In this document: positions 3,257-64,000 of the stretch, piece by piece
Numbering within the stretch: the stretch's first letter is position 1
Layout of the letters: each line of letters begins with the position of its first letter
IMG/VR virus record: IMGVR_UViG_3300025141_000025
Span: 104,486 to 168,485 of that record
Direction: 5' to 3' (one strand)
DNA length: 64,000 nucleotides
Source of the DNA: a virus
Made by a program: the position numbers and the translations under genes
The notes under the pieces: generated by a model
Seen by the model: the letters and a program-made list of their open reading frames with translations, nothing else
The model's database searches: none
What the model was told of the DNA's origin: nothing

Positions 3257-3526
3257 TTATTTGAAAATTTTTTCCTTGGCTGTGTTAAACAATTGCGGCA
3301 AAAAAGACTTTTTTAATCGCAGCAGTCTTTCAAACCTCACACGTTTTCTTGCATCTGTGTAAAGTGTTGTAGGTCGTCTAATCTCGCCATCAATGATTTG
3401 TTCACTAAAGTCGTAAAATTTAGATTTACCACTTGATTTAGGGGGTGCAGCATACGCAACGTTGAAAAAAATAAAAAAGAACAGCAAAAGAATTATAAAT
3501 GAAATTCTTTTGTTGCTGATTTTCAT
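3257..3526 (-). CDS. Secreted CglF/GltF-like gliding motility protein
   Basis: Signal peptide (AYA); YDFSEQIIDGEIRRP...RFERLLRLKKSF resembles the CglF pattern as I recall it. Confidence 0.6.
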   Translation of the reverse strand: MKISNKRISFIILLLFFFIFFNVAYAAPPKSSGKSKFYDFSEQIIDGEIRRPTTLYTDARKRVRFERLLRLKKSFLPQLFNTAKEKIFK

Positions 3527-3792
3527 GATTTATTTTTCACTTTTTTGACGATATTCTTAATTCTACGTCGTAGAAGTCTTTCACCCAAAACTGGACCTCC
3601 TACATCTAATGTCTCTGGTCTTTTTGTGGTCTCTTCACCACCGGCAGCTTTTGAATGATCAATATCCAATTCCAAATTACCTGCCTCGGGACACCCTGCC
3701 CATACATTTTCAATAGGTTCAACTTCTTCCGGGTGATCAGAATCAAGCATTTCTTTAATTAGTTTTCTGAGTTGTCGTTTTGTAATTTTCAC
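3523..3792 (-). CDS. MKITKRQL-leader protein
   Basis: N-terminal leader; C-terminal LGERLLRRRIK. Confidence 0.75.
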   Translation of the reverse strand: MKITKRQLRKLIKEMLDSDHPEEVEPIENVWAGCPEAGNLELDIDHSKAAGGEETTKRPETLDVGGPVLGERLLRRRIKNIVKKVKNKS

Positions 3793-4274
3793 TAGTCAAT
3801 ACTCCTATCGATTGCTTTATATACAGGATACATCTCATCCCATGTCGCCCAGTCAATATCTCCGGATTCTACGGCAGCTTCTAATACATCTGGAATATTA
3901 GAGGTGAAGCCGCCCTTAGGATGAGCGCCCGGTCCTTTGGGTTTGGAAAAAGGATCAACATACATGTTGCCGTCTCTTCCCTCGAAACCTTTATAAAAAC
4001 CAATGTCGATAAGATACTGGTGCACCTTCTGTGTCAGTTCCTGCTTAGATCCTTTCCATTTTTTTCCTGGTCGGCTTGAAGATTGCTGCGATGGTTGCGG
4101 CGCTCTGGATGGTGTGGTTTGACCCGTGGAGCCGGCTTCAAAATCCCTAACAAGCTGCTCATACTCGGCTCGAGTAATCGTGCCGGCCCTATAGTCTTTG
4201 TAATAATCTGCAGGCTCTTCGAGTAAAAGTGATTCTCGAATAATTCTTCTAAGTTGTCTCTTTGTGATTTTCAT
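3792..4274 (-). CDS. MKITKRQL-leader protein
   Basis: MKITKRQLRRIIRESLLLE. Confidence 0.75.
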   Translation of the reverse strand: MKITKRQLRRIIRESLLLEEPADYYKDYRAGTITRAEYEQLVRDFEAGSTGQTTPSRAPQPSQQSSSRPGKKWKGSKQELTQKVHQYLIDIGFYKGFEGRDGNMYVDPFSKPKGPGAHPKGGFTSNIPDVLEAAVESGDIDWATWDEMYPVYKAIDRSID

Positions 4275-4613
4275 TTATAACTCTTCTCGATATCTTGGAT
4301 CAATTGCTATTAACCTTTTATAGTCGTGATCTGTTTCATATCCGTTTGCTTGTAATATTGCTTCAATATCCTGTGCTCGCACACCCATTTTCCTTTCTAG
4401 TCCCATTAGTTCGCCATTGGTGGCGATGTGATACTGCCCCGGAAAATCAGTCGATAAATAAAACTTAAAACCTTTAAGGTCTAGTTCAGTACCAAGCAAT
4501 TGCTCTATTTTATCTAGGTTTGGATCACTATCCCACTTATCATAGTCACTGTATTTTACCTTTTCGATCTCTTCTTTGATGATTCTCTTTAGTTGTCGTT
4601 TTGTAATTTTCAT
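4275..4613 (-). CDS. MKITKRQL-leader protein
   Basis: Start moved to leader ATG. Confidence 0.75.
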   Translation of the reverse strand: MKITKRQLKRIIKEEIEKVKYSDYDKWDSDPNLDKIEQLLGTELDLKGFKFYLSTDFPGQYHIATNGELMGLERKMGVRAQDIEAILQANGYETDHDYKRLIAIDPRYREEL

Positions 4614-4615
4614 AA

Positions 4616-4831
4616 TCAAAATCCTAAGACTGCACCTTCATCGTGATGTCGATCTTCTAGTTCATCGGCTAATTCCCGGAGCGCTTCTGCACGCTCAAGA
4701 TCAGAGCGAAGCGTAGTGCCCACTAACTGATCAATCAATCTCCATTGTTCTTCACGATTGTCGCCGAACATGTTATCCTTATCCCGGGCTTCCTTAATGA
4801 TTCTTCTGAGCTGTCGTTTTGTAATTTTCAT
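4616..4831 (-). CDS. MKITKRQL-leader protein
   Basis: Leader; TAATG coupling. Confidence 0.75.
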   Translation of the reverse strand: MKITKRQLRRIIKEARDKDNMFGDNREEQWRLIDQLVGTTLRSDLERAEALRELADELEDRHHDEGAVLGF

Positions 4832-4935
4832 TAGCTTATTATTCCTTTTATTTTTTCGAGGTAATCATCTGCAATTTCTGGCTTCACTCCCATGCTCTTG
4901 TTCATGAAAGCTGTCTTTATTATATCCTGTATTTG
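4824..4935. repeat. Exact direct repeat, copy 1 (copy 2 at 63889-64000)
   Basis: 112 nt identical by direct reading. Confidence 0.9.
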
Positions 4936-5079
4936 TAGCAATTGCTGGTGAGATGTAGGTGCCATCGAATCTTTCCATTCTTCATATGCACCGGGATTGT
5001 TCGGATCCATACGTTCGGAAATTATTTTAGCGCTCTCTTCTTTGATGATTCGTCTTAGTTGTCGTTTTGTAATTTTCAT
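4831..5079 (-). CDS. MKITKRQL-leader protein (3' end duplicated at window end)
   Basis: Start moved to leader ATG; IIKEESAKIISE. Confidence 0.75.
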   Translation of the reverse strand: MKITKRQLRRIIKEESAKIISERMDPNNPGAYEEWKDSMAPTSHQQLLQIQDIIKTAFMNKSMGVKPEIADDYLEKIKGIIS

Positions 5080-5504
5080 TATGGACATACCCATTTTCCC
5101 ATTCTTTGTTGCCAATACGGCTCAGTAGCCTCTCCGGTCCTTCGATCTTTGCAACCCATTTGTTCTCCAGTGGGTTTTTTATCCCGCCTGCTGGTATCTA
5201 CACGGCCTGACCGGTCTATGCCGGGAGCCCAGTATTCTTCTAAATCATCTTCTTTAAGGAGGTCGGTTCCATGTGAAAGATCATCGATTAGGTTTTCATA
5301 GTCCTCAACAGGTACCTCATGGCCTAGGTCATCCATAAAATCGTCATATAAAAGTGATTTAATTGCGCCTGCTCCACCAGTGGCTAAAGCAGGATCAGCA
5401 TGATAAGATTTTGCCCTATCGGTTAAATAAGTTATGATCTCATCGTTGGACGCAACCATGGCTTCTCTGATTATTCTTCTTAGTTGTCGTTTTGTGATTT
5501 TCAT
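5079..5504 (-). CDS. MKITKRQL-leader protein
   Basis: Leader; internal LLKE. Confidence 0.75.
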   Translation of the reverse strand: MKITKRQLRRIIREAMVASNDEIITYLTDRAKSYHADPALATGGAGAIKSLLYDDFMDDLGHEVPVEDYENLIDDLSHGTDLLKEDDLEEYWAPGIDRSGRVDTSRRDKKPTGEQMGCKDRRTGEATEPYWQQRMGKWVCP

Positions 5505-5791
5505 CGCTTCCAGTCATCCCCCATGAGCTCATCGATCTCGCGCCAGCTTGCCTTCGTGATAAGGTACTTGTATCGAGGGTAAAACTTGCCATCGATATAG
5601 TCACGAATCGCATTCTCACCCTGTAGGACGACCTCGGTGGGGACAACGTAGCTAATCCCTTCACCCTCAGTGTGCTCATGGCCATACCACTCAACCTCAA
5701 CTGAGGTCACTGGTGTACCCACAGGTAAACCAGTCATGCGGTCTATTTCTTCTCGGATGATTCTTCTTAGTTGCCGTTTGGTGATCTTCAT
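5501..5791 (-). CDS. MKITKRQL-leader protein
   Basis: Leader; ATGA coupling. Confidence 0.75.
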   Translation of the reverse strand: MKITKRQLRRIIREEIDRMTGLPVGTPVTSVEVEWYGHEHTEGEGISYVVPTEVVLQGENAIRDYIDGKFYPRYKYLITKASWREIDELMGDDWKR

Positions 5792-6051
5792 GTCTGGTTC
5801 CCTATATCAATTGCTCTTTGTAGCGCGATCTCATATGCGTCGCCACGTTGTCCGCCGAGCCCGGTAATCTTCTCAAGCGCTGTATCAGCTATTTCGGCCG
5901 GGGTTGCATTTCTGTAACCGGGTTCATGTGCTATATGGTCGACCCACATGTGAACCTCTCCGGTCAAACCGGCACCAGGTACTATTCCGCCATCCTTCCC
6001 GACAAACGCTTCTTTGATAATTCTTCGGAGTTGTCGTTTTGTGATTTTCAT
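5788..6051 (-). CDS. MKITKRQL-leader protein
   Basis: Leader; ATGA coupling. Confidence 0.75.
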   Translation of the reverse strand: MKITKRQLRRIIKEAFVGKDGGIVPGAGLTGEVHMWVDHIAHEPGYRNATPAEIADTALEKITGLGGQRGDAYEIALQRAIDIGNQT

Positions 6052-6473
6052 GAATAATACTCCTCAAAAGCACTTGTTCCATCATCTTCACCAGCGTACA
6101 TTTCATCGGGATCTTTTTCCTCAACTTCCTCAACCTGCATTCCATTTTGTTTTGCATAAAGCTGAATGAGTTTATCGACATCTACACCATAGTAATCAGG
6201 GAATACGTCTGAATCCCATCTCTCCAAACCCCCTTGTACACCTTCTGCATCAGCTTTAAGCATTGCAGCGAGACCTTGCTCTGAAGTAAACCCTTGTACC
6301 CCTTCATCCAGAAGTGATCTTACCATCTCACCGAGACTGATCCATTCGCCGCCTTCATCTTCAACACTAAACCCGCCGTATGGAAGGCGCTTGACATAAA
6401 GCGTACCTTCGGACATTACGTTCGAAATTTCTTCTTTGATAATTCGTCTGAGTTGTCTCTTTGTGATTTTCAT
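6048..6473 (-). CDS. MKITKRQL-leader protein
   Basis: IIKEEISNVMSE. Confidence 0.75.
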   Translation of the reverse strand: MKITKRQLRRIIKEEISNVMSEGTLYVKRLPYGGFSVEDEGGEWISLGEMVRSLLDEGVQGFTSEQGLAAMLKADAEGVQGGLERWDSDVFPDYYGVDVDKLIQLYAKQNGMQVEEVEEKDPDEMYAGEDDGTSAFEEYYS

Positions 6474-6481
6474 TTTTTATC

Positions 6482-7114
6482 TCAATCGTACATTGGGGGT
6501 ATGTGCTTGACTGGCTTGCGCTTCTTCCTAAGAGTCGCGCCACCCTTCTCTAACACCTTTATAATCTTGTCTACTGTCGTCCCTGACTGTTTCGCCCATT
6601 GTTCATCAACGACAAAACTTGAACGCCCAAGCGGCATCGTACCCCATGGGGTCTCGTCGTCTTCGACCATAAACGCCACAACTTTACCACCCCTGCGAAT
6701 GGGTTGGTAAGTCAAGTATTTTACCTCGCGAGGCTCGACAGCACCGTAGCTATCACCTCCGATGGCCTTGAGTTCTTTTTTGTCAGGAGAAGCACCAACT
6801 CGTTTTTGATGATCTTTATCCAGTGCCATCGAGATTGCCAACCGGATGTTTTCGAGATCAGGATATGGTGTAACCCCTAAGTCTGCCAACGTACCTCGGT
6901 CGTCGTCGTAGAAAGCGTCGGCCTGATCTAGACCGTATTCATCGATAAAGAGTTGTGCCACTTTTTGATGATCAGCATGGCTCATTTTTGAAGGGTCTTC
7001 AGGGAGGGCATCAACAAGTTTTTTCTCCCATGCATCCAACTCGGCCTGGCGTTCTTTCCAGGATTTCATCTGTTCTTTGATGATTTTTCTAAGTTGTCGT
7101 TTTGTAACTCTCAT
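6482..7114 (-). CDS. MRVTKRQL-leader protein
   Basis: Leader variant. Confidence 0.75.
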   Translation of the reverse strand: MRVTKRQLRKIIKEQMKSWKERQAELDAWEKKLVDALPEDPSKMSHADHQKVAQLFIDEYGLDQADAFYDDDRGTLADLGVTPYPDLENIRLAISMALDKDHQKRVGASPDKKELKAIGGDSYGAVEPREVKYLTYQPIRRGGKVVAFMVEDDETPWGTMPLGRSSFVVDEQWAKQSGTTVDKIIKVLEKGGATLRKKRKPVKHIPPMYD

Positions 7115-7115
7115 A

Positions 7116-7496
7116 TTACATTCTCCACTTGCAGTTTCTAGCTAACCTGTCACATTTAATAAGTGCTTCTTTAATTAGTCTTTCTAACCCAAACAAATTC
7201 GCTGTTTTCCAATCATCAAAATCTTCTAATTGTGAAGCAGATAGTTTTTTATCTGCACACCTCAATAAATGAGCCGCTTCGTAATACTTTGACTCGGCCA
7301 GCGCAAACATTTTGTGTTTGTGATGTTGTTCGGCTTCACTCATGATTGCTGATGCTTTATTATACAATAAAGCGGCGCAGTCTGCTGTAGGACCACATGT
7401 CACGATCGTCGTGCACATTTTAGTTTTATAATCAATGGTACTTGTGGCACAAGAAGTACAAAGTAAAAATAGCATTACCGTGGCAAGAAATCTCAT
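7116..7496 (-). CDS. Putative lipoprotein
   Basis: Start moved to MRFLATVMLFLLCTSC (lipobox-like). Confidence 0.55.
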   Translation of the reverse strand: MRFLATVMLFLLCTSCATSTIDYKTKMCTTIVTCGPTADCAALLYNKASAIMSEAEQHHKHKMFALAESKYYEAAHLLRCADKKLSASQLEDFDDWKTANLFGLERLIKEALIKCDRLARNCKWRM

Positions 7497-7498
7497 TT

Positions 7499-7798
7499 TT
7501 AACTGCCAAGCATCTCGTCTAAACCAAGCATAGATTTGCACATAAAATAAGAATAATGTAATCTTTCGAAAGTTTGCCAAACATATTCAACACTCACAGG
7601 TCTCACGGACATCTTTAACCAGTAATCCGGATTAATGTCGACTGCGACGTCCTCAGCCTCTCTGATGTTTTCTGCCCTGATAAATTGTACATGGCTTTTA
7701 AATTCCCTGTGGGGAGTTTTTTCATATAATTCAAAAATACTGCCTTCCATTTCTTCATTATTTTTGAACAGATCCATCTGTATTGCTAGATTATTCAT
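7499..7798 (-). CDS. Hypothetical protein
   Basis: ORF with GAGGAG SD. Confidence 0.6.
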   Translation of the reverse strand: MNNLAIQMDLFKNNEEMEGSIFELYEKTPHREFKSHVQFIRAENIREAEDVAVDINPDYWLKMSVRPVSVEYVWQTFERLHYSYFMCKSMLGLDEMLGS

Positions 7799-7807
7799 TT
7801 TCGTATG

Positions 7808-7960
7808 TCACTCCTCTTTATTCCACGGTGCGTCTGGGTCTTCCATTATCGATACCATACTTTTTTCGAATCCGCGGGTCGCTATCCAAGCACCCAAGAC
7901 CATTCCCACAGCCGTACAGCCAAGAAATGTAAGTGCCACCAGTATGGAATCCCAGCTCAT
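7808..7960 (-). CDS. Small single-TM protein (not in ORF track)
   Basis: MSWDSILVALTFLGCTAVGMVLGAWIA..., 50 aa, fills gap. Confidence 0.5.
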   Translation of the reverse strand: MSWDSILVALTFLGCTAVGMVLGAWIATRGFEKSMVSIMEDPDAPWNKEE

Positions 7961-7962
7961 CT

Positions 7963-8145
7963 CTACTTAATTCTCACATGCGATTTCAAAATTTCGTCTA
8001 AGCTTTTTACAATTGATGACAATGTGTAGGCAGTGTCTTGTGCTCGCATCATTGCCAATGGATTTTCTTTTCCCTCAATAGTTTGAAAAGATTTTATGGT
8101 AAATTCACGAAGCTGTATTAACATTTGAATTTCTTTTTGTGTCAT
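7963..8145 (-). CDS. Hypothetical protein
   Basis: Coupled ORF. Confidence 0.55.
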   Translation of the reverse strand: MTQKEIQMLIQLREFTIKSFQTIEGKENPLAMMRAQDTAYTLSSIVKSLDEILKSHVRIK

Positions 8146-8828
8146 TATTCATTAGCCCAATCAGACGCGCCTAACAGGTATTGTCCTAAATCACTCGCAT
8201 CTAATTTATCCAAACTCAATCTAAATGAATTACCGAATTCTATGGTGATCATATCTCCCACAACAGAAACCCTTGTTGCATAAGGCGTGTTATTGTCTAG
8301 GTCCCTAAGCGTAACTCTTCGTTCCCACTGAGCCCCGGGCTTTGTAATTGGACTTTCATCAATTCGAGCTTTCTCTTCCTTGATGATTCTTCTAAGCTGT
8401 CGCTTTGAAATTTTCGTTCTGCCTTCTTTAAAGCTGCGCTGGTGAATCTCTTCATCGCTTAAGACACCACCAGCATCGTACTCTTTTCGTGCAATCTTGA
8501 GTTCTCTACTGAGGTCATCATGATCTATACCAAATTCATCAGCCAGAGTCCGGTGATTCCACCCCTGCGTCGCCGGATCATCTCGATCGCGGGAAACAAA
8601 ATATGTTGCCATGACGGAAGATGATGCAGGTGTTATGTGACCGTATTCTTTTGCCCATTTCTTATAGTGATTAATTAATTTTTCCGCCGTCTGATCTCCA
8701 CCCATGGGAGCATCGCCGGTCGGATTATCGCGATACCGTTCGTAGTCTCCAGGAACAGTTGGGTCATAAGGTCGGCCACCATACTCTTTTATGATTCTTC
8801 TTAGTTGTTGCTTTGTGATTTTCATCAT
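8145..8828 (-). CDS. Double-leader protein (two fused cassettes)
   Basis: N-terminal leader plus internal FKE-GRTKISKRQLRRIIKEEKARIDE. Confidence 0.75.
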   Translation of the reverse strand: MMKITKQQLRRIIKEYGGRPYDPTVPGDYERYRDNPTGDAPMGGDQTAEKLINHYKKWAKEYGHITPASSSVMATYFVSRDRDDPATQGWNHRTLADEFGIDHDDLSRELKIARKEYDAGGVLSDEEIHQRSFKEGRTKISKRQLRRIIKEEKARIDESPITKPGAQWERRVTLRDLDNNTPYATRVSVVGDMITIEFGNSFRLSLDKLDASDLGQYLLGASDWANE

Positions 8829-9088
8829 CTAGCTCCATGTACCTTTTCAGCCATAAGCCTAAGTGCCTCTTTTCTAATTCCGGGTGAGCGAAACCCACCG
8901 CCAATACGTTCGGCTGAGATTCGGATAAACTCTATTAGCTCATCAGTCTGCATCTCAACCTCAGCTAGAAAATCAGCACGCATTTCATCTTCATCATCAG
9001 AAATAGTCCCGTCGGGATTCATTTCCCTAACAAGGCGAGATTTCTCTTCTTTGATGATTCTTCTCAGCTGTCTTTTTGTTATTTTCAT
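8825..9088 (-). CDS. MKITKRQL-leader protein
   Basis: IIKEEKSRLVRE. Confidence 0.75.
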   Translation of the reverse strand: MKITKRQLRRIIKEEKSRLVREMNPDGTISDDEDEMRADFLAEVEMQTDELIEFIRISAERIGGGFRSPGIRKEALRLMAEKVHGAR

Positions 9089-9324
9089 CTTGTCGGTCCT
9101 CTTAAATTGTCCTTTAGTTCTCTAATGATCTTTTCTAACCCACCAACGATACCCATTGCCGTCTCGGGATCCTCTAAATTCCATCCCATACCTGCAGCAA
9201 GATCATCAATTGTTGTCCATACACCTTCGAATGTGTCGATATTGACCTGACCACGATTCTCATTGAGAAGTTTAGTTTTCTCTTCTTTGATGATTCTTCG
9301 AAGTTGGCGATCTGTGATTTTCAA
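9085..9324 (-). CDS. MKITDRQL-leader protein
   Basis: IIKEEKTKLLNE; cargo resembles 9321..9560. Confidence 0.75.
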   Translation of the reverse strand: MKITDRQLRRIIKEEKTKLLNENRGQVNIDTFEGVWTTIDDLAAGMGWNLEDPETAMGIVGGLEKIIRELKDNLRGPTR

Positions 9325-9560
9325 CTTTGGTTCCCTTTTCTTAGTTCACTTGCTACAGTTTCCAATGCATCAGCAAATGTACCTTGAACCGCAGGGTCTG
9401 ACATATCTACAGTGCCGGCCATTGCTTCGTCATCGAGCCAACGCCATATACCATCAACTGCATTTTGCCAGAGTCCGCCCTGAACATCTGGTTCGACACG
9501 CATGGATTGCGCTGTTTCTTCCTTGATGATTCTTCTAAGTTGTCGTTTTGTAATTTTCAT
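9321..9560 (-). CDS. MKITKRQL-leader protein
   Basis: Leader. Confidence 0.75.
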   Translation of the reverse strand: MKITKRQLRRIIKEETAQSMRVEPDVQGGLWQNAVDGIWRWLDDEAMAGTVDMSDPAVQGTFADALETVASELRKGNQS

Positions 9561-9667
9561 TTTACGTTACACTTTCCTAAACAGTTACTGCAGCCACAAC
9601 AGCCACAGCAACAACAGCAGTGTGCGGAATTAAATAGGTTCCAAAGGCGGTGAAAAAAAGCTTTCAT
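9557..9667 (-). CDS. 36-aa cysteine-rich peptide (not in ORF track)
   Basis: MKAFFHRLWNLFNSAHCCCCCGCCGCSNCLGKCNVK; TAATG and ATGA overlaps with both neighbours. Confidence 0.6.
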   Translation of the reverse strand: MKAFFHRLWNLFNSAHCCCCCGCCGCSNCLGKCNVK

Positions 9668-10029
9668 TATGAATAATCTCCATTAATAAGCTTATCAGTA
9701 AACTCTTCCATGGTTTTGTACGCCAATTGCCTAATTCTTCTTGTAAGTTCGTTTTCAAGGTCAATTGCTGCGTCATCCACCTGTGCTTTCCATGCAGTTT
9801 TTGCATCGCCGGCCGTATCACCCATAGCCATCATAGAGGGATCACCCTTGTCAAATGCTTTGACTTCTGCATCGTGCCATTTATCGACAAGTTCACCTAC
9901 GTCCTTCCAGTCAACCCGGGGCCAGTGGTGAGCTCGTCGTTCCAAGCTAGGCATATCATCCTGTTCATCAAGGACTTTGGCCTTCTCTTCTTTGATAATT
10001 CTTCTTAGTTGCCTTTTCGTAATTTTCAT
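9667..10029 (-). CDS. MKITKRQL-leader protein
   Basis: IIKEEKAKVLDE. Confidence 0.75.
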   Translation of the reverse strand: MKITKRQLRRIIKEEKAKVLDEQDDMPSLERRAHHWPRVDWKDVGELVDKWHDAEVKAFDKGDPSMMAMGDTAGDAKTAWKAQVDDAAIDLENELTRRIRQLAYKTMEEFTDKLINGDYS

Positions 10030-10469
10030 TTTTTATCCTTAGGGGTTGGCTTTTGTGTTTTTTTGATTTCATAAAATACAATATTAACGAATTCACCACT
10101 CTGTCCAAGCTGATCTAATTTAAGAAACTTGGCAGAGAATATTTCGTCAGATGATGTAGCATTTTGATATTCAACATACATCAGCATTAAAAGTTTAGCA
10201 CCGGTCATATGTTTTTCAGACGAATCACCTGGAAATGTTACCATTAAAACATCATTCACACCTAGACAGTTGCTGTGTCTTATTACCTTCGCGACCATTG
10301 GAAATCTAAAAGCAGGTACATCATGCACCTCGACCGGAGAATTACATTTATCTATCACGGCCTGCACAGTCAGGTGATCATAAGATGGAATCACATTTTT
10401 AGTTGTAGTGGTACAAGATCCGCACCCAATCACAAATGTAAGCAATAAAACTGTTAAAATATTCTTCAT
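10026..10469 (-). CDS. Putative lipoprotein
   Basis: MKNILTVLLLTFVIGC lipobox-like. Confidence 0.6.
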   Translation of the reverse strand: MKNILTVLLLTFVIGCGSCTTTTKNVIPSYDHLTVQAVIDKCNSPVEVHDVPAFRFPMVAKVIRHSNCLGVNDVLMVTFPGDSSEKHMTGAKLLMLMYVEYQNATSSDEIFSAKFLKLDQLGQSGEFVNIVFYEIKKTQKPTPKDKK

Positions 10470-10473
10470 TCAA

Positions 10474-11538
10474 TTAACCTTTCATAAGACCAGATAGCTT
10501 TTGCCACCGCTCCAAGATAATTACATCCTCGGGTCGGAGATTATAAGATTCAGTCTTTGTTTTGTTTCCTAGCGCATTACCTATAGCGGTAAGATATTCC
10601 AGCGTTTTGTCAGTGCCCAGTTTTTTAAGGTCAACTTTGGCTATAGTTTTGATATCAGCACTCGGATCATTAAGCATTGTGGCGGCCCACCGATGATGAC
10701 CATCGAGAATCTCATCGTCGAGAGAGGCATATGCTTTAAGGTTACCACCGGAAACACCATTTACTGCCATTCCGAGTGCCTTGGGTAAGAGAATATTAGT
10801 TTGTGTGGGTACTGCTTTTTGTGCTGCCATACCTCCACCCAGCTTAATTTCAATACTGTCATCACTATCTTCACCGTCATTGGCACCAAGTCCAGCAGTC
10901 ATAAATTCTTCAGCACCGGGTGCGTCCATACCAAGAAATGCATTGGGAGCGGGAGCATCGCGCTCAACCAAATAATGTAACCCCTGTTTCCAGGCTGCCT
11001 CCTTAAACGGTTCAGCAATGTCGATATTGTATTTTCCGCCAGGTGTCAAAGCATCAGCAACATCTTTGACATCACCGGTTGCATCTTTCGGCCCGGGCAA
11101 GAAAGGCATCTTACTTTTTGGAAGTCCGCTACCGGGAATTTTTGAACCAACTGCTTCAACCCTTTTAATAAACGTTCCAGTACCCAGTTCTTCCAACCAG
11201 TCAGCAACCTTATCCGGATCTGGTTTGACAACAGTCTCCTCACCATCATCGCCCTTATCGGTAAATTCCATAGCCTTGAAAATAGGCTGTTCAGGATCAC
11301 GAGTTAAAATTTGAGCAGCGACCTCTTTCGCATCGGCACCTTTAAAGTTTAACTGGTTGTCAAATGCAGTGCCTTTTGGCTCGCCTACATCAACAACCTC
11401 TTTTTCTCCCTCGGCCGATTCTTCTTTTGTTTCTTCAAAAAGAAATGTTGATAACATTGAGCGTGATGATTTAGGTTTACGGTGCTCAAGTATCACATCA
11501 TGAATAATTTTTTGAAGATGTGCCTTTGTGATCTTCAT
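10474..11538 (-). CDS. Leader-tagged ParB/Srx-like domain protein
   Basis: MKITKAHLQKIIHDVILE; PTQ and ILDGHHRWAA motifs. Confidence 0.65.
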   Translation of the reverse strand: MKITKAHLQKIIHDVILEHRKPKSSRSMLSTFLFEETKEESAEGEKEVVDVGEPKGTAFDNQLNFKGADAKEVAAQILTRDPEQPIFKAMEFTDKGDDGEETVVKPDPDKVADWLEELGTGTFIKRVEAVGSKIPGSGLPKSKMPFLPGPKDATGDVKDVADALTPGGKYNIDIAEPFKEAAWKQGLHYLVERDAPAPNAFLGMDAPGAEEFMTAGLGANDGEDSDDSIEIKLGGGMAAQKAVPTQTNILLPKALGMAVNGVSGGNLKAYASLDDEILDGHHRWAATMLNDPSADIKTIAKVDLKKLGTDKTLEYLTAIGNALGNKTKTESYNLRPEDVIILERWQKLSGLMKG

Positions 11539-11540
11539 GA

Positions 11541-11948
11541 TTAAATTTCCCCAGAAAGATCGCCCAAGTTTAATTCAGCACTTTCTGATAGGACATCAAC
11601 TTGAGCTTCTAGCATCTCTTGTAAGGCTGCAGCCTGAGCTGCCAATGCCTCAACAATCGGGGCCTTTTCGTTGATTTCTGGTCCACAATTAGTACAATGT
11701 TGCGCTGCATTTTGAACAGACTCAACAACCAAGTCCAAGGATCTTGCAGCGACCTCCATTTCAGTAAGCATGTCACCGGCTGGATCTTCACTTTCATTTA
11801 CAAGCTCACCCACAGCGTCTGCCACATCCACAGCAGGCAGCTCAAGTGCCACAGCCTCAGGCGCAGGTCCATGATCTCCACATGCTTCCTGTAATTTTCG
11901 GCGTTCGTTTCTAATAATTCTTCTTAGTTGTCGTTTTGTGATTTTCAT
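11541..11948 (-). CDS. MKITKRQL-leader protein
   Basis: IIRNERRKLQE; CxxC. Confidence 0.75.
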   Translation of the reverse strand: MKITKRQLRRIIRNERRKLQEACGDHGPAPEAVALELPAVDVADAVGELVNESEDPAGDMLTEMEVAARSLDLVVESVQNAAQHCTNCGPEINEKAPIVEALAAQAAALQEMLEAQVDVLSESAELNLGDLSGEI

Positions 11949-12038
11949 TTTTTGCTCCTATTTTCATCACATTTATTACAAATAAACTATTTCATCCTTT
12001 GAAATAATTTTATAGTGTTTTTTACCTTTTGATCATTT

Positions 12039-12422
12039 TCAAAAGCTGGCCCCTAAATCAATTTCAATAGATCGATCCTCAGCCCATTGTTCAACATCAA
12101 GTGGACCGATAAAACCATCCTGCGGTGGCTTACTATCAAGCCATGTTCGATTGGGTGCTCCAGCATGCTGAGCCAGGTCATCCAAATCTTCAAACCCTAA
12201 CCCTCTTTGGTCTAGCCATTCACCCCAGCCTTTTTCAAGCTCGGCATCAGTCCTTTGTTCACCTTCGCCTCCAGGTGCGTAGTAATCTTCCTCACCTGGA
12301 GGTGCAGAAAAATCTCGATCATCTGAGTGCCATAGGTCTCTAACTTGGCGATCCACACCCGGCATACCTTCGCTAAGTGACTCCTTGATAATCTTTCTTA
12401 GTTGTCGGCAGGTAAGTTTCAT
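12039..12422 (-). CDS. MKLTCRQL-leader protein
   Basis: IIKESLSE. Confidence 0.75.
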   Translation of the reverse strand: MKLTCRQLRKIIKESLSEGMPGVDRQVRDLWHSDDRDFSAPPGEEDYYAPGGEGEQRTDAELEKGWGEWLDQRGLGFEDLDDLAQHAGAPNRTWLDSKPPQDGFIGPLDVEQWAEDRSIEIDLGASF

Positions 12423-12424
12423 GA

Positions 12425-12745
12425 TTAGCCCTCCACTAAATCCATAACAACGGAATTAGTTGCACTGTTAATTGTTCGTTCAATTAGCTTGGCCTCATCA
12501 GGATCGAGGTAATCAGCGCCAATAGAATTCAAATAATCCATAATTTCTTCTCTAATAATGTCTGACAGATAACTCTTGTCAAAGACACCGTGATCTGGTT
12601 TAGGGTGAAGTGCTTGCATTCTAGCTCGAAAGTCATCATCCATCTTTGCTGCAGCCATACCCATATCAGCTGGAGTCATCTGCTCCATTAGTCTAGCCTT
12701 CTCTTCTTTGATGATGCACCTGAGTTGTCGTTTGGTGATTTTCAT
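12425..12745 (-). CDS. MKITKRQL-leader protein
   Basis: IIKEEKARLME. Confidence 0.75.
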   Translation of the reverse strand: MKITKRQLRCIIKEEKARLMEQMTPADMGMAAAKMDDDFRARMQALHPKPDHGVFDKSYLSDIIREEIMDYLNSIGADYLDPDEAKLIERTINSATNSVVMDLVEG

Positions 12746-12750
12746 GATTG

Positions 12751-13023
12751 TTAACGCTCCTGCAGCGACTGTATGACAAAGTTGATTACTTGGCGGGTTG
12801 TCAAAGGGCCATCTTGATAGTCTAAGTCGACCAGCCCTGAGGCATTTTCAATGGCCTCGTCCACCGCGACCATTAAATCCTCAAGGACAGATTCACCGGG
12901 AGCATATTCACCTTGGATACCCTGATTAAACTTATAGTCCGGCCGGCGGGTAGGCTGTTCATTCATAAGTCTAGCCTTCTCTTCCTTGATGATTCTTTTT
13001 AGCTGTCTTTTTGTGATTTTCAT
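12751..13023 (-). CDS. MKITKRQL-leader protein
   Basis: Start moved to leader ATG; IIKEEKARLMNE. Confidence 0.75.
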   Translation of the reverse strand: MKITKRQLKRIIKEEKARLMNEQPTRRPDYKFNQGIQGEYAPGESVLEDLMVAVDEAIENASGLVDLDYQDGPLTTRQVINFVIQSLQER

Positions 13024-13024
13024 T

Positions 13025-13633
13025 TTAATCCCCTGTGTATCCCACATGTAGTCTTTTGTCTTCCAACGCAGCAATTACCATTTTTTGATCGGAATATTCT
13101 CCACTACTTCGATCAAGAGTCTTCAGAACTCTGTAAGCTGCTTCGATTTCCTCTTGAACTTCCGAGACTGCCTTCTGCTTGCTCTTGTAATAATCAGCAA
13201 TCCCTGCGTCTTCTTTAAAGAGTTTGGCTTTCTCTTCTTTAATGATTCTTCTGAGTTGTCTTTTTGAGATTTTCATTTTTCCTTCTCTAATGACTTCGAG
13301 CGATCCGTTTGGAAAACCCGTCTTAAATCCTAGTTGGTTAAGATAGCCTTGAATCTCATATGTTCTATCGCTACTTCCAAACCCTTCCATGCTGTCTTCA
13401 TATCGCCAAGCTAACTCGTCCGCAAGGTCTATCGCCAATATAGCATGCCTCGTCTCAACGCTCTGAAACTCTTCTGGGGTCAATAGTTGCTCAGCTGCCC
13501 GTGTATATTCATCTGGATACATTATGTAATCGACACCTGGCTCTGGACCTTGTGCAGTCATAGAACCTCTCTCTAAAAGATTCCGCTTTTCTTTTCTAAT
13601 AATTTTTCTTAGATTTCTTTTTGTGATTTTCAT
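13025..13633 (-). CDS. Double-leader protein (two fused cassettes)
   Basis: Leader plus internal IRE-GKMKISKRQLRRIIKEEKAKLFKE. Confidence 0.75.
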   Translation of the reverse strand: MKITKRNLRKIIRKEKRNLLERGSMTAQGPEPGVDYIMYPDEYTRAAEQLLTPEEFQSVETRHAILAIDLADELAWRYEDSMEGFGSSDRTYEIQGYLNQLGFKTGFPNGSLEVIREGKMKISKRQLRRIIKEEKAKLFKEDAGIADYYKSKQKAVSEVQEEIEAAYRVLKTLDRSSGEYSDQKMVIAALEDKRLHVGYTGD

Positions 13634-13938
13634 CAAACGCCTCGCCTCTTCATGTCATGTGCTAAATCTGACATCTCTTCGCCGGCATCCATCAAAAGTT
13701 CTTCCAGTTTGTCATACCTGGACGTACCGAATTCGTTACCGTCATCAAGCCACTCCGGAGGTACAGACTTTATCTTTCGATACTCAAAGAACATTTTGTC
13801 CAATGCTGATCTCATGGCCTCAACCTTATCAACCTCATCCTGGTTGAGGGTCAGTTGTCGGACATCTTTCTCAGCTCGGATCTCATTTACAAGTTTGCCC
13901 TTAATAATTCTTTTTAGTTGTTGTTTAGTAATTTTCAT
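13633..13938 (-). CDS. MKITKQQL-leader protein
   Basis: Start moved to leader ATG; IIKGKLVNE. Confidence 0.7.
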   Translation of the reverse strand: MKITKQQLKRIIKGKLVNEIRAEKDVRQLTLNQDEVDKVEAMRSALDKMFFEYRKIKSVPPEWLDDGNEFGTSRYDKLEELLMDAGEEMSDLAHDMKRRGV

Positions 13939-40784: not shown

Positions 40785-42647
40785 TTACACAAATTCAGCA
40801 TCAATTACATCATCGTTTGGCGGTGGCGAATTGTCCGGTTGCTCATCATCCGACGTCGTATCATATGCCTGCTTTGCGATTTGTTGCAACACATCATTCA
40901 GCGTAGAAAACGCATCATCAAGTTCTGACTTTGTATCACATGCAAGCTTTGCCTCTGCAGCAGAAACCGCTGTATTGATAGCCGAAACATCCTCATCAGA
41001 CAATTTGTCACCAAGTGCTTCTGTGGAGTTTTTCGCCTGATGTATCAGGTTGTCCAGCATGTTTCTTGATTCGACAACTGCCTTCTTCTTTTGATCCTCA
41101 GCCTCATATTTAGATGCGTCCTTTACCATTTGATCAATTTCAGTATCTGACAGGCCACTTGAGTTTGTAATTGTGATCTTTTGATCCTTACCTGTTGCCT
41201 TATCAACTGCTGCAACCGTCAAGATTCCATTTACATCAATGTCAAAAGTAACTTCAATTTGTGGAACACCCCGGGGTGCAGGAGGAATACCATCCAAAGT
41301 GAAACGGCCCAAGGTTCTGTTGTCGCCCGCCATTTCTCTTTCTCCCTGCAGGACATGTATATCAACTTGCATCTGATTATCAGCTGCCGTTGAAAAGACC
41401 TCAGACTTCTTCGTGGGAATAGTCGTATTCCTAGGGATCAGTTTTGTTGTGACTGATCCCATTGTCTCAATCCCTAGGCTAAGTGGAGTTACATCGAGCA
41501 GGAGCATATCCTTGACATCACCTGTAAGGACACCTCCTTGCACGGCGGCACCTAATGCCACAACCTCATCAGGGTTGACGCCTTGATGTGGAGATTTGCC
41601 AAAGAATTTTTCAACCTTCTGCATAACCAAAGGAATTCGTGTAGACCCACCGACCAAAATAACCTGGTCAATGTCAGTCGCCTTCTTTCCTGCATCTTTC
41701 AGCGCTTGCTTGCAAGACTTAAATGTCTTATCCACGATCCCATCAGCCAGCTGCTCAAATTTAGAACGACTAATCGAACATGTCAAATGCTTAGGACCGG
41801 TAGCATCAGCTGTCAAGAAAGGCAAATTAATGTCTGAAACCTGTGTAGAACTCAGTTCAATCTTTGCCTTCTCAGCTGCTTCACGAATTCTTTGCATAAC
41901 CATTGAGTCACCGCTGACATCCAGCCCTGCCTGTTGTTTAAATTCCTCTAGCAAATGATCGATCAAAGCTTCATCGATATTATCACCGCCAAGATATGTG
42001 TCACCGCTCGTAGATAAAACCTCTACAACATCACCACTTACCTCCAAAACAGAAACATCAAATGTACCACCACCGAAATCGTAAACAGCCACAAGTTGTT
42101 CACTCTTGGCACCTAGGCCATAAGCCAGGGCCGCTGCTGTAGGCTCATTGATGATTCGTTTGACGTTCAATCCGGCAATCTTACCGGCATCCTTAGTGGC
42201 CTGTCGTTGACTGTCATTGAAATACGCCGGAACCGTAACCACAGCTTCGGTGACAGGTTCGCCAAGATACTTCTCAGCAGCTCTCTTTAGCTTCTGGAGC
42301 ACCTTAGCGCTAATCTCCGGTGGTGAATAAACCTTGCCGTCAACATTGATACAGGCGTCACCTGCCGCATTCGCAGTTACATCAAAGGCAACCTTCTCAG
42401 CGGCATTTTTTACCTCATCAAGCTTTGACCCGATGAACCGTTTGGCGGAATAGATGGTTTTATCAGGATTTACGACTGCTTGCCGGCGTGCTGTCACCCC
42501 AACAAGAACATCATTATCGTTAAAAGCAACGACTGATGGTGTCGTTCGACTACCCTCCTCATTGACAATTACATGAGGTTCTCCTCCCTCAACAATTGCA
42601 ACGCACGAGTTTGTCGTGCCCAAATCAATACCAATAATCTTACTCAT
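40785..42647 (-). CDS. dnaK: Chaperone DnaK (Hsp70)
   Basis: [31 protein letters not shown]. Confidence 0.97.
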
Positions 42648-61609: not shown

Positions 61610-62713
61610 TTATGAGTGCAAACCACCAAGCATAGTAACTGCAATTAGACCAGGTAAATTTTGATTTACATATACGCCAGAGAACAATGTAGAGGCTCGG
61701 CCACCAACATAAGAAAATGCCGATTCAAGCCTGTTACTCACACCAGGATCTGATGCCATTTCGCTAGTTACAACAAGTAACAACACACCTGTCTTTGCAT
61801 TCCCAGATGGATTTGGGCAGGGTGATGAGCGCAGGCAACCCTGAAATACAGTGGCACCGAGATCAGCCCTCGAGACATCTCTAACAACCGTACTACCAAG
61901 TAAAATCCTGCCAGGCTGTTGCAAACATTTTTCTAGATCCTTTGAGTCAAAACTCTGAATTGGAGAACTGTCATTTGCCATTTTTAGAACTACACCTAAA
62001 AGTTTTGCAAAATTTGTGTTGGCCGCTGGATACATGTCTAACATTCCTACTTTACCACGTAACAGCTGCAACTGTTTTTCGTTGTCAATGATAATGTGAG
62101 GGTAGTTTACAATATCTTTTCGGCATGCCTCGAAATTTGCTTTAATGGTTGGATTCAATAGTTCTTGTGCTGTAGGCTTGCTAATCACATAAATGACCTT
62201 TCCGACTGATTCGATTGAACTAAGGTATCGTGTTGCAGAGTCATGTAAGCTAGAACATGCACTGCCTGTTCCGCCGCCGCCGCCAGCCAGTACAAAAATC
62301 CAATCGACCTTACCAATTCGAGTCCTTAGCGCATCTTCATAAAGGGCGCTATTTTCACTTAGGACCTTTTTACCTAGTTTTACGTCTTTACCTACCCCAT
62401 CCGCACCAGGAATAAGCAAAAAATGCTGTGGTTCAACTCCAGCAGGCTGGTCTTTTACTGTTGTATTGACAAGTAGGGTTTTATTAAATCCTACATCCAA
62501 AAATGCCTTTGCTAATTTTCCGCCGCCACCACCAACACCAATAAATGCGCAACTAATTGCACTAGGCGCGGTATTATCAGGCAGTAACCTATCATCGCCT
62601 GCTACAGGCGTATCATCATATGCTTCGACAAATCCAAAATCAAAATCCGATCCTGTACCAGGGTCAGGATTATTAATGTAATTGTCATCATGCGTTTCAT
62701 TACCGTTGCTCAT
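61610..62713 (-). CDS. Tubulin/FtsZ-superfamily GTPase (PhuZ/TubZ-like)
   Basis: IGVGGGG, VNT, GVGKD, GGGGGTGS, IDN, FDxxD. Confidence 0.8.
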   Translation of the reverse strand: MSNGNETHDDNYINNPDPGTGSDFDFGFVEAYDDTPVAGDDRLLPDNTAPSAISCAFIGVGGGGGKLAKAFLDVGFNKTLLVNTTVKDQPAGVEPQHFLLIPGADGVGKDVKLGKKVLSENSALYEDALRTRIGKVDWIFVLAGGGGGTGSACSSLHDSATRYLSSIESVGKVIYVISKPTAQELLNPTIKANFEACRKDIVNYPHIIIDNEKQLQLLRGKVGMLDMYPAANTNFAKLLGVVLKMANDSSPIQSFDSKDLEKCLQQPGRILLGSTVVRDVSRADLGATVFQGCLRSSPCPNPSGNAKTGVLLLVVTSEMASDPGVSNRLESAFSYVGGRASTLFSGVYVNQNLPGLIAVTMLGGLHS

Positions 62714-62782
62714 AATACTCTCCTAAACAAAAGAACAAGTGTCTCTATGCATTTAAATAGGCACTCACTCAATTAACGTAAT

Positions 62783-63217
62783 TTACTTATGTGAATCCTG
62801 TTGCACGTTATCTCCTGCATCAGACTGCATAAGCATTCCTCTTTTTTCCTTTATGTGATCACCAATCGGAACAGGTTCACCATCACCGTCAATTCTAACA
62901 AATGTCATTTCAGTTGTTAATACAACACGTTGTGAACCATTATACGGACTGTGCCTTCGGGCCTCAAGCGTAACGTCAGCTGAACAATTGCCAATTGACT
63001 TAAGCTCACCATAAATTTTAATGATTTGTCCCGGGCGTACTGGTTTACGAAAAAGAACTTCAGCAACCCTTACTGTAACCATCCTCGGTGTATCACACAT
63101 CTGGCACACATAGGCAGCGGCGGCTTCATCAAGCCATGCTAGCATTACGCCGCCAAATAAATTTCCATGAAATCCAACATTTGACTCCTTGCAGACATGT
63201 GTTGAAATTAATTCCAC
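62783..63217 (-). CDS. Acyl-CoA thioesterase (HotDog, YciA-like)
   Basis: HGNLFGG..L.WLDEAA, VT, F.KPV, TFV. Confidence 0.85.
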   Translation of the reverse strand: MELISTHVCKESNVGFHGNLFGGVMLAWLDEAAAAYVCQMCDTPRMVTVRVAEVLFRKPVRPGQIIKIYGELKSIGNCSADVTLEARRHSPYNGSQRVVLTTEMTFVRIDGDGEPVPIGDHIKEKRGMLMQSDAGDNVQQDSHK

Positions 63218-63228
63218 TGACTTTCCTT

Positions 63229-63576
63229 TTATGAGTTGTACATTTCTTCAGCTTCTGAGATTGCGCTGAGTATATCATGTGCATCCTCACTACCACCGGA
63301 AGCCAAAGAAGACAAAGGCCTCTGTAGTCGATTAAATGCCAGGTCTAGGGCGTTGGGATTTATTTGTCCCACAGCATCTTGAAAACCGCTTGATCCACCA
63401 ACATATGCATTTGTAAGATCAAGAATTTGCTCTTGAACAGCACCGCCTAGGCTTGACCAGGCCACGCCAAACGCGATAAGTGGGTTTGCCGCTTCTTTAT
63501 CACCCCATTGTTCTTTAAGCATTCTTTGTTTCTCTTCTTTGATGATTCTTCTGAGTTGTCGCTTTGTAATTTTCAT
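63229..63576 (-). CDS. MKITKRQL-leader protein
   Basis: IIKEEKQRMLKE. Confidence 0.75.
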   Translation of the reverse strand: MKITKRQLRRIIKEEKQRMLKEQWGDKEAANPLIAFGVAWSSLGGAVQEQILDLTNAYVGGSSGFQDAVGQINPNALDLAFNRLQRPLSSLASGGSEDAHDILSAISEAEEMYNS

Positions 63577-63896
63577 TATATAGTATCTCCAGGATCTAGA
63601 TCATCGCGGTAGGTAGGTTGGGATGTGTTCCCCGACTTATACGCCTTGTCTGCCTGAGAGCCGACAGGGGCCATAAGTTTCTTTAGTTGGTTAGAAAAAG
63701 AGAAGAAAGGGTCACCATATTCCTCGTATGCTGGATCGCGTTCAGAGTACTTTACAATTTCTTCTGCAATCATTTGTGCTTTTTTAAGGTGGTCAAGCAT
63801 AAGGTACATCTCATCGACTGGGTCATAGGACTCTTTTAAGAGTTTGACCTTCTCTTCTTTGATGATTCTTCTGAGTTGTCTTTTTGAGATTTTCAT
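63576..63896 (-). CDS. MKISKRQL-leader protein
   Basis: IIKEEKVKLLKE. Confidence 0.75.
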   Translation of the reverse strand: MKISKRQLRRIIKEEKVKLLKESYDPVDEMYLMLDHLKKAQMIAEEIVKYSERDPAYEEYGDPFFSFSNQLKKLMAPVGSQADKAYKSGNTSQPTYRDDLDPGDTI

Positions 63897-64000
63897 TAGC
63901 TTATTATTCCTTTTATTTTTTCGAGGTAATCATCTGCAATTTCTGGCTTCACTCCCATGCTCTTGTTCATGAAAGCTGTCTTTATTATATCCTGTATTTG
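63889..64000. repeat. Exact direct repeat, copy 2 (3' end of a second copy of the 4831..5079 gene)
   Basis: Identical to 4824-4935; truncated by window. Confidence 0.9.

What the first reader, a model, noticed from the sequence alone, without database searches (positions are those of the whole stretch)
63889..64000. Same cassette present twice, 59 kb apart, with the breakpoint inside leader DNA
Seen: 63889-64000 is identical to 4824-4935 (112 nt, running to the window edge). Identity stops within the first codons of the next gene's leader, and the downstream cargos differ (4616 vs 63576 ORFs). Inference: the roughly 45-nt leader-coding repeat acts as a recombination site for duplicating and shuffling cassettes between two arrays. 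An assembly mis-join at the repeat is the alternative.
Basis: partly seen in the sequence, partly recalled or inferred. Interest (0 to 1): 0.75.

Follow-up and report, generated by a model that had tools for sequence, protein, structure and literature searches.

The report
Leader-bounded gene cassette copied at contig end
The last 112 bases of this ocean giant-phage contig exactly repeat the end of a small gene 59 kb away; related assemblies show that gene beside at least four different neighbours, always swapped inside the shared 45-base leader, a known kind of phage gene shuffling.

Summary
Window 63889-64000 equals 4824-4935 exactly. It covers the last 34 codons of an 82-aa orphan gene ("X", 4831-5079, minus strand) plus 8 nt of the next gene's leader. 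Identity ends at leader nt 9, and the downstream cargos (71 aa, 106 aa) are unrelated.

The window end is the end of a 168,485-bp contig, so the repeat cannot be extended. A true two-copy genome is therefore unproven.

The recombination idea is well supported by comparison:
- Three independent metagenome contigs carry the same X cargo (0-1 SNP). Counting the window, X has two upstream and four downstream neighbours.
- Every breakpoint lies inside a 45-nt MKITKRQLRRIIKEE-coding leader, at varying positions, giving in-register hybrid leaders.
- One contig matches the window with 1 mismatch in 4,694 nt, then diverges at the same base as the window-end copy.
- The closest complete relative (284 kb) has an alternative cargo between identical flanks at its two contig ends. 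It also splits cargo homologues differently between two arrays.

This is a coding-leader version of known T4-type modular shuffling (internal-protein loci, PeSL cassettes).

Earlier notes of this scan described the leader arrays here and on another genome. None seen reported this junction evidence.

The parts
4831..5079 (-). Gene X, complete copy: 45-nt leader (MKITKRQLRRIIKEE) plus a 67-aa orphan cargo. It lies in the main leader array, preceded by the 141-aa gene 5079-5504.
   Evidence: ORF; one protein cluster only, seen on 7 contigs; no Pfam or PHROG family.
4824..4935 (-). Internal copy of the exact 112-nt repeat: X codons 49-82, the stop, and the first 8 nt of the next leader.
63889..64000 (-). 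Terminal copy of the 112-nt repeat. The X' stub is open to the contig end (34 codons) and overlaps the ATG of the 106-aa gene.
   Evidence: Contig end shown.
4787..4831 (-). 'Alpha' leader of the 71-aa gene that follows X. Its first 35 nt travel with X in L002 and L003.
4616..4831 (-). 71-aa cargo gene downstream of X in the main array.
   Evidence: seen on 2 contigs.
63852..63896 (-). 'Beta' leader (MKISKRQLRRIIKEE) of the 106-aa gene. Its first 23 nt are identical to the leader after X in L001, nt 22-47 are identical to the leader after X in L003, and it differs by 1 nt in 45 from the internal leader at 13232-13276.
63576..63896 (-). 106-aa cargo gene downstream of X'. Homologues in relatives sit in leader arrays at other positions.
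63229..63576 (-). 115-aa leader-tagged gene, the second member of the terminal mini-array. It is followed by a 4HBT thioesterase (62783-63217) and a tubulin/FtsZ-like gene (61610-62713).
3523..13938 (-). Main array of about 22 leader-tagged genes that supplies the repeated 45-nt homologies. Median identity between leader pairs is 80%.

Best explanation
X is one cassette in a hypervariable array of small genes in an uncultured marine jumbo T4-like phage. Every gene in the array starts with the same 45-nt leader, which earlier notes read as a capsid-targeting tag.

The leaders are about 80% identical DNA repeats in one orientation and one reading frame. The phage's own homologous-recombination machinery can therefore cross over between any two of them, within a genome copy or between co-infecting relatives. 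Each crossover yields an in-frame hybrid leader and moves, replaces, deletes or copies the cargo between two leaders. The unit exchanged is roughly the last 9 nt of a gene's own leader, its cargo, and the first 8-35 nt of the next leader.

The 112-nt repeat at the contig end is the footprint of one such event. It placed X, with the 'beta' junction also seen in contig L001, in front of the 106-aa gene.

The assembler stopped there because X lies in several contexts in the sampled population and acts as a repeat in the assembly graph.

What is shown and what is inferred:
- Shown: the repeat, the multiple adjacencies, and breakpoints inside leaders.
- Inferred: homologous recombination as the mechanism, possibly through excised mini-circles as shown for PeSL cassettes.
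- Not decided: whether the X-to-106 junction sits in the same genome as the internal copy (my estimate about 0.4) or in a co-occurring variant or chimeric path (about 0.5).
For: The repeat:
- It is exact and ends at leader nt 9.

X in other contexts:
- L001-L003 carry the X cargo with 0-1 SNP in other contexts.
- Upstream neighbours are the 141-aa gene or a homologue of the 112-aa gene.
- Downstream neighbours are the 71-aa, 106-aa, 77-aa and 121-aa genes.
- Flanking genes are 93-96% or 73% identical while the X cargo is at least 99.5% identical. This is a mosaic pattern.
- L001 equals the window with 1 mismatch in 4,694 nt and diverges at exactly 4823, the same base as the window-end copy.

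Hybrid leaders, all in register, with crossover points at roughly leader nt 9, 24 and 36:
- The X leader of L002/L003 is the first 36 nt of the window's 160-aa-gene leader plus the last 12 nt of X's own leader.
- The leader after X in L003 is the first 35 nt of the window's alpha leader plus a different 3' end.
- The window-end leader shares its first 23 nt with L001 and nt 22-47 with L003.

The 106-aa protein:
- Its eight variants show all four combinations of leader residue 4 (S/T) with residue 105 (T/I).

The closest complete relative, G001 (284 kb):
- Its two contig ends carry the same upstream gene end and leader, different cargos (84 aa and 75 aa), and then the same 106-aa homologue.
- It has two leader arrays, and homologues of window main-array cargos are split differently between them.
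- It encodes T4 Gp23 and a RecA/UvsX-type recombinase.

The leaders as recombination substrates:
- Leaders are 80% identical in DNA, against 29% for cargo controls. 21 of 300 leader pairs share exact runs of 20 nt or more.
- Codon identity at positions with the same residue is 60%, against 37% expected from codon usage.

Precedent:
- T4-type recombination needs patches of less than 50 bp. PeSL repeats shuffle cassettes and form mini-circles. Similar shuffling was proposed for T-even internal-protein loci (PMC2839356; PMC4122927).
Against: - No reads were available, so neither window junction is verified.
- The X-to-106 junction with its cargo is seen in this contig only.
- The second copy is a 104-nt stub at a contig end, and cargo duplicates are otherwise absent.
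- The arrays are tightly packed and translationally coupled. Selection for intact genes would by itself confine surviving breakpoints to gene boundaries, which here are the leaders.
- The uniform A-rich leader codons may reflect translation initiation rather than selection for recombination.
- A single crossover between the two leaders 59 kb apart would give a 59-kb duplication or deletion. This is unlikely to be viable, so a two-step event is needed for a true second copy.
- The recombinase evidence comes from a relative, not from this contig.
Confidence: 0.7

Rival explanations
1. True recent segmental duplication. One phage genome carries X twice, once in the main array and once in a second array upstream of the 106-aa gene. 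X (perhaps with more upstream genes) was copied by a double crossover, template switching or mini-circle insertion at leaders. The contig stops because the repeat could not be bridged.
For: - The assembler followed the X-to-106 path rather than another one, which suggests solid read support in that sample.
- The X-plus-beta-leader junction exists independently in L001.
- In relatives the 106-aa homologue lies in an array upstream of the tubulin-like gene, so a second array at this place is natural.
Against: - Only 104 nt of the second copy exist.
- No other duplicated cargo is seen among about 25 window cargos or about 120 cargos in relatives' loci.
- Both copies are 100% identical, as expected also if they are one sequence.
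- No read data were available.
Confidence: 0.4
2. Assembly-level effect of strain mixture. Each genome has one X, but co-occurring variants place it beside different neighbours. The contig end either follows a variant junction or is a chimeric path through short shared leader k-mers, and it stops on re-entering the already used X node.
For: - X occurs on 7 contigs, with four different downstream neighbours among the five copies read here.
- L001 is a strain with 1 mismatch in 4.7 kb but a different neighbour after X.
- Three of six ends of L001-L003 lie in or at leaders.
- Three of four viral contigs with the 106-aa homologue end within 500 nt of it.
- The two ends of G001 overlap as alternative alleles of one cassette site.
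Against: - A chimeric join would have to pass through a shared run of only about 23 nt, which is shorter than the usual final k-mers.
- A variant with X directly before the 106-aa, 115-aa, thioesterase and tubulin-like genes implies a large rearrangement, unless the 106-aa and 115-aa genes also sit in the main array of that variant, as in L047.
Confidence: 0.5
3. Terminal or circular overlap of the contig (direct terminal repeat or wrap-around of a permuted genome), unrelated to leaders.
For: - T4-like genomes are circularly permuted.
- The relative G001 does show an imperfect overlap of its two ends.
Against: - The partner of the terminal 112 nt lies about 109 kb from the contig start, not at it.
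- A look-up with the sequence that should follow (4936-5200) found look-alikes only in the three windows that overlap this region. This is weak evidence.
- Relatives are 267-293 kb, so the 168-kb contig is probably a fragment.
- The identity ends inside a leader.
Confidence: 0.03

Closest known systems
Hypervariable internal-protein (IP) loci of T-even phages (Repoila et al. 1994, EMBO J 13:4181), as described in PMC2839356 and PMC4122927
   Same: - Small, unrelated genes for proteins thought to be packed in the capsid share an N-terminal leader.
- Number, order and identity of these genes vary among close relatives.
- Conserved sequences flanking the ORFs were proposed to mediate shuffling of the IP set.
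   Different: - In T-even phages there are two small loci with a few genes. The flanking elements are described as promoter plus stem-loop motifs.
- Here dozens of translationally coupled genes have no intergenic spacers, and the coding leader itself carries the crossover points, mapped to the nucleotide.
- The leader sequence differs from T4's.
- I could not read the 1994 paper. Details beyond searches are from memory.
PeSL (early promoter plus stem-loop) cassettes that mediate modular shuffling in T4-type phages (Arbiol et al. 2010, PMC2839356; Comeau et al. 2014, PMC4122927)
   Same: - Short dispersed direct repeats flank non-essential orphan genes in hyperplastic regions.
- Recombination between them explains insertions, deletions and replacements between near-identical phages.
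- Crossover points vary within the repeat and give chimeric repeats.
- No dedicated recombinase is known.
   Different: - PeSLs are non-coding regulatory units, and each cassette brings its own promoter and terminator.
- Here the repeat is translated, and exchanges must stay in frame.
- Mini-circles were shown by inverse PCR for PeSLs. Nothing of that sort is shown here.
- PeSL-like promoter repeats do exist elsewhere in this window (17.4-46.3 kb).
Integron gene cassettes
   Same: Arrays of promoterless, unrelated cassettes in one orientation that move between arrays at a repeated junction element.
   Different: - Integrons use an integrase and attC sites with a fixed crossover point.
- Here the crossover positions vary within the repeat and no integrase was seen among the proteins scanned.
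- This is an analogy only (own knowledge).
Polymorphic toxin loci (Rhs/CDI) with a conserved coding region used to swap variable ends
   Same: Conserved coding sequence serves as the homology that exchanges variable protein modules in frame (own knowledge).
   Different: - Those swap C-terminal toxin tips of one large gene, together with immunity genes.
- Here whole small genes are exchanged between N-terminal leaders, and no immunity partner is present.

Membership tests
T4-type leader-tagged internal-protein locus | Otherwise unrelated small proteins share a short conserved N-terminal leader | tested here: met
   25 leader genes were found in the window. Their cargos are unrelated by blastp. 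The leader sequence is not T4's own.
T4-type leader-tagged internal-protein locus | Leader removed by the prohead protease, and protein packed into the capsid | not testable with these tools
   Only the hydrophobic-x-Glu ending (IKE/IRE) is visible in the sequences. There are no proteomic data.
T4-type leader-tagged internal-protein locus | Gene number, order and identity vary among close relatives | tested here: met
T4-type leader-tagged internal-protein locus | The phage belongs to the T4 superfamily | tested here: inconclusive
   The closest complete relative has Gp23 (215 bits) and a RecA/UvsX-type gene (217 bits). For this contig itself I rely on earlier notes.
PeSL-mediated modular shuffling | Cassettes flanked by a sigma-70-like early promoter plus a stem-loop terminator | tested here: not met
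   Array genes abut or overlap (TAATG, ATGA) with no intergenic spacer. The promoter-like repeats lie at 17.4-46.3 kb, outside the array.
PeSL-mediated modular shuffling | Differences between near-identical genomes begin and end inside the repeats, giving chimeric repeats | tested here: met
   with the leader taking the place of the PeSL.
PeSL-mediated modular shuffling | Excised circular intermediates | not testable with these tools
   This needs inverse PCR or circular-junction reads.
Intragenomic segmental duplication | Both copies, with all four junctions, on one molecule | not testable with these tools
   The contig ends 104 nt into the second copy.
Integron | Integrase gene and attC recombination sites with a fixed crossover point | not tested
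   No search for an integrase or attC sites was run. The variable crossover positions argue against a fixed site.

The most novel reading that the evidence does not exclude
The leader is a dual-purpose element. Its peptide addresses the protein (presumably to the capsid), and its DNA acts as a recombinase-independent, in-frame 'attachment site'. This would make the arrays an integron-like cassette library in which cargos are copied between two arrays of one genome and between co-infecting phages, possibly through excised leader mini-circles. The window-end X' would be a freshly copied cassette caught in the act.
Probability: 0.25. Interest if true: 0.75.

Novelty: new variant of a known kind. 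Interest (0 to 1): 0.5.

Why it matters
These arrays hold dozens of orphan proteins that are probably delivered into the host with the DNA. How fast the set can be re-dealt bears on phage host range and counter-defence in the ocean.

The data here give nucleotide-level breakpoints showing that the translated tag itself is where cargos are exchanged. This extends the T-even internal-protein and PeSL shuffling model to a coding repeat and to very large arrays.

There is also a practical point. Assemblies of these phages break or overlap imperfectly at such cassettes, so apparent duplications and 'linear' calls at these sites need read-level checks.

Tried and rejected
- The genome search 'own': no genome is held.
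As a result, the other contigs that carry X (3 of 7, plus the one with the 85-aa variant P0002) and the second contig with the exact 106-aa protein could not be read.
- An exact 40-mer from the 106-aa gene found nothing in viral contigs.
- blastn against GenBank phages matched only the thioesterase, at 68%.
- The leader peptide as a text search in papers found nothing.
- The X cargo has no relative in viral contigs.
- Repoila 1994 (PMC395341) is not held.
- Circular or terminal overlap was rejected as the explanation, because the partner copy is internal.
- I tried to read an assembler k-mer size from the 112-nt overlap. It implies k=113, which matches no default I know, so I drew no conclusion. 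A 112-nt match at the end of G001 is 96% identical and appears coincidental.
- Upstream of the tubulin-like gene, relatives L004-L008, L013 and L039 have no leader genes. They therefore gave no guide to what lies beyond the contig end.
- Leader codon uniformity was considered as evidence of selection for recombination. I did not use it as such, because the preferred codons are A-rich, as expected near start codons.

Full report
**1. Observation**

Positions 63889-64000 and 4824-4935 are identical over all 112 nt. The first differences are at 4823/63888 and 4822/63887. With looser matching the repeat is 147 nt at 96% (family D8). The extra 35 nt are leader DNA, which is similar in every gene of the family. 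This is the longest repeat in the window and the only one that includes non-leader (cargo) sequence.

All genes in the window lie on the minus strand. Read on that strand, the repeat is the last 34 codons and the stop of an 82-aa gene that I call X (4831-5079), followed by ATGAAAAT of the next gene. The next genes are a 71-aa ORF (4616-4831) and a 106-aa ORF (63576-63896). Beyond the leader MKI(T/S)KRQLRRIIKE they have nothing in common.

**2. The window edge is the contig end**

No genome is held for this window. Earlier notes place other windows of the same record 40,485 and 8,485 bases before this one, and the earliest note 95,534 bases before it. This fits windows at 0, 32, 64 and 96 kb plus a last one starting at 104,485.

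The protein database reports 168,485 bp as the longest contig carrying X, the 106-aa protein and the 71-aa protein. That equals 104,485 + 64,000. The contig therefore stops 104 nt into a second X, and "extending past the window" is not possible.

The partner copy is about 109 kb from the contig start, so this is not a terminal overlap. A look-up with the sequence expected to follow (4936-5200) found look-alikes only in the three windows that overlap this region (weak evidence).

**3. What the region is**

The window carries Hsp70, a tubulin/FtsZ-like gene, a KamA-like radical-SAM gene and a DUF2201 metallopeptidase-like gene. It also holds about 25 small genes that start with the same 15-residue leader.

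Relatives found through the tubulin-like protein are IMG/VR contigs of up to 267-293 kb. The closest complete one is G001 (IMGVR_UViG_3300030419_008158, 284,429 bp, CheckV 100%). It encodes a T4-type Gp23 capsid protein and a RecA/UvsX-type recombinase. Earlier notes of this scan call the phage T4-like and read the leader as a capsid-targeting tag. I did not retest that reading.

At 168 kb the source contig is probably a fragment. X, the 71-aa, 106-aa, 115-aa and 141-aa proteins match no Pfam or PHROG family. X forms a single database cluster.

**4. The same cargo in other contexts**

A search of JGI metagenome contigs with the X cargo returned three contigs with 100% protein identity. ORF lists and alignments give five copies of X:

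| Copy | Upstream neighbour | Downstream neighbour |
|---|---|---|
| Window, internal | 141-aa gene | 71-aa gene |
| Window end | unknown | 106-aa gene |
| L001 | 141-aa gene | a 77-aa gene absent from the window |
| L002 | homologue of the window's 112-aa gene | contig end |
| L003 | homologue of the 112-aa gene | homologue of the window's 120-aa gene, then a lipoprotein gene in swapped order |

- The X cargo differs by at most one base among the copies. The flanking homologues are 96%, 93% and 73% identical to the window. This mosaic of divergence levels is a mark of recombination.
- L001 equals the window with one mismatch in 4,694 nt, from 9517 down to 4824. It then diverges at 4823, exactly where the window-end copy diverges.

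**5. Breakpoints lie inside leaders**

lines up the leaders.

- The leader in front of X in L002/L003 matches the window's 160-aa-gene leader over its first 36 nt, with two mismatches. In the window that leader follows the 112-aa gene. The last 12 nt match X's own leader.
- The leader after X in L003 equals the window's leader after X for 35 nt and then differs.
- The leader after X at the window end equals that of L001 for 23 nt. From nt 22 to 47 it equals that of L003. It differs by 1 nt in 45 from an internal leader at 13232-13276.

The crossover points thus fall at roughly leader nt 9, 24 and 36, always in register. This fits homologous exchange rather than a fixed site.

Both upstream contexts and both downstream leader types occur in three of the four possible combinations. 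Eight near-identical variants of the 106-aa protein show all four combinations of leader residue 4 (S/T) with residue 105 (T/I).

**6. An independent example in the closest relative**

G001 has 27 leader matches, all on one strand, in two arrays: 184.9-187.8 kb, and 273.1-284.4 kb running on into 0-0.6 kb. Its two contig ends overlap imperfectly. Both ends have the same upstream gene end and a nearly identical leader. They then carry different cargos (84 aa and 75 aa). After a differing leader start, both continue with the same homologue of the 106-aa gene. I read this as two alleles of one cassette site in a circular map. A real tandem arrangement is not excluded.

Homologues of window main-array cargos (13633, 6482, 5079 and 8145) lie in G001's array upstream of the tubulin-like gene, together with the 106-aa homologue. 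The 8825 homologue and the ParB-like gene lie in the other array. In L047 the homologues of the 115-aa and 106-aa genes sit inside the main array and in swapped order. Cargos are therefore dealt differently between two arrays in different phages.

**7. Assemblies break here**

- Three of the six ends of L001-L003 lie in or at a leader.
- Three of four viral contigs with a 106-aa homologue end within 500 nt of it.
- G001 breaks in its array.

**8. Are leaders plausible recombination substrates?**

- Leader pairs have a median DNA identity of 80% over 45 nt, against 29% for cargo controls.
- The median in-register exact run is 11 nt, and 21 of 300 pairs share 20 nt or more.
- Codons at positions with the same residue are identical in 60% of pairs, against 37% expected from codon usage. 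The preferred codons are A-rich, which translation initiation could also explain, so I do not count this as evidence of selection for recombination.
- Published work states that T4-type recombination needs patches of less than 50 bp. It also shows that short dispersed PeSL repeats shuffle orphan cassettes between near-identical T4-type phages, with variable crossover points, chimeric repeats and excised mini-circles. Similar shuffling was proposed in 1994 for the T-even internal-protein loci (PMC2839356; PMC4122927).

**9. What remains open**

Whether one genome holds X twice cannot be settled.

For a true duplication:
- The assembler followed the X-to-106 path.
- The junction of X with the first 23 nt of this leader is independently present in L001.
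- An array upstream of the tubulin-like gene is normal in relatives.

Against a true duplication:
- Only a stub exists.
- No other cargo is duplicated in the window or in relatives' loci.
- Strain variants with other neighbours demonstrably co-exist.
- A single crossover between leaders 59 kb apart would give a 59-kb duplication or deletion, so a viable second copy needs two exchanges or a mini-circle insertion.

I put a true two-copy genome at about 0.4, a variant or chimeric path at about 0.5, and a terminal overlap at about 0.03.

**10. Verdict**

The recombination reading is supported by comparative evidence. The within-genome duplication is unproven. In kind this is a coding-leader variant of known T4-type modular shuffling, so its interest is moderate.

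Earlier notes of this scan had described the leader arrays on this genome and on another one. The junction evidence was not among the notes I saw.

Noticed in passing
L121:1-392 and L049:1-421 (both ends of IMGVR_UViG_3300030419_008158): The two ends of this 284-kb 'linear' contig overlap imperfectly. The flanks are the same, but one leader-bounded cargo differs (75 aa and 84 aa). The record is probably a closed circular map with an allelic cassette, which is why no terminal repeat was called.
   Followed up: partly
L003:907-1730 compared with window 9667-10469: The 120-aa leader gene and the adjacent lipoprotein-like gene (147/153 aa) are in opposite order in L003 and in the window.
   Followed up: no
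window 17455-46281 (repeat families D4-D6): There are eight or so copies of a stereotyped promoter-like element, read on the minus strand as TGTGTAAG, a spacer, then GTGGTATAATA. Several have G/C-rich stems nearby. They resemble the PeSL promoter/stem-loop cassettes described for T4-type phages and were already noted by earlier readers.
   Followed up: no
window leaders, e.g. 4787-4831, 5035-5079, 63852-63896: Leader codons are far more uniform than codon usage predicts (AAA, ACA, CAA, AGA, GAA; Leu only as CTN). Codon identity at positions with the same residue is 60%, against 37% expected.
   Followed up: partly
P0003-P0010 (variants of the 106-aa protein, 63576-63896): Eight near-identical variants differ at leader positions 4, 9 and 17 and at five cargo positions. 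Position 4 and position 105 show all four combinations.
   Followed up: partly
L001:4687-6170: After X, contig L001 continues with genes absent from the window. Four of them carry leaders, three of these with the variant MKLTK(S/T)KLK(Q/R)IIKEE.
   Followed up: no
window 61610-63217: A tubulin/FtsZ-like gene (weak Pfam hit, 42 relatives in IMG/VR) is preceded here by a 4HBT thioesterase and two leader genes. The relatives examined (L004-L008, L013, L039) lack these at that position. Nucleotide similarity to L004 and L005 starts inside the tubulin-like gene (from 62647).
   Followed up: partly
window 179-2284 and 40785-42647: The window also holds a 701-aa protein with MopE-type metal-binding repeats and a weak VWA hit, and a full-length Hsp70/DnaK gene (826 bits).
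   Followed up: no
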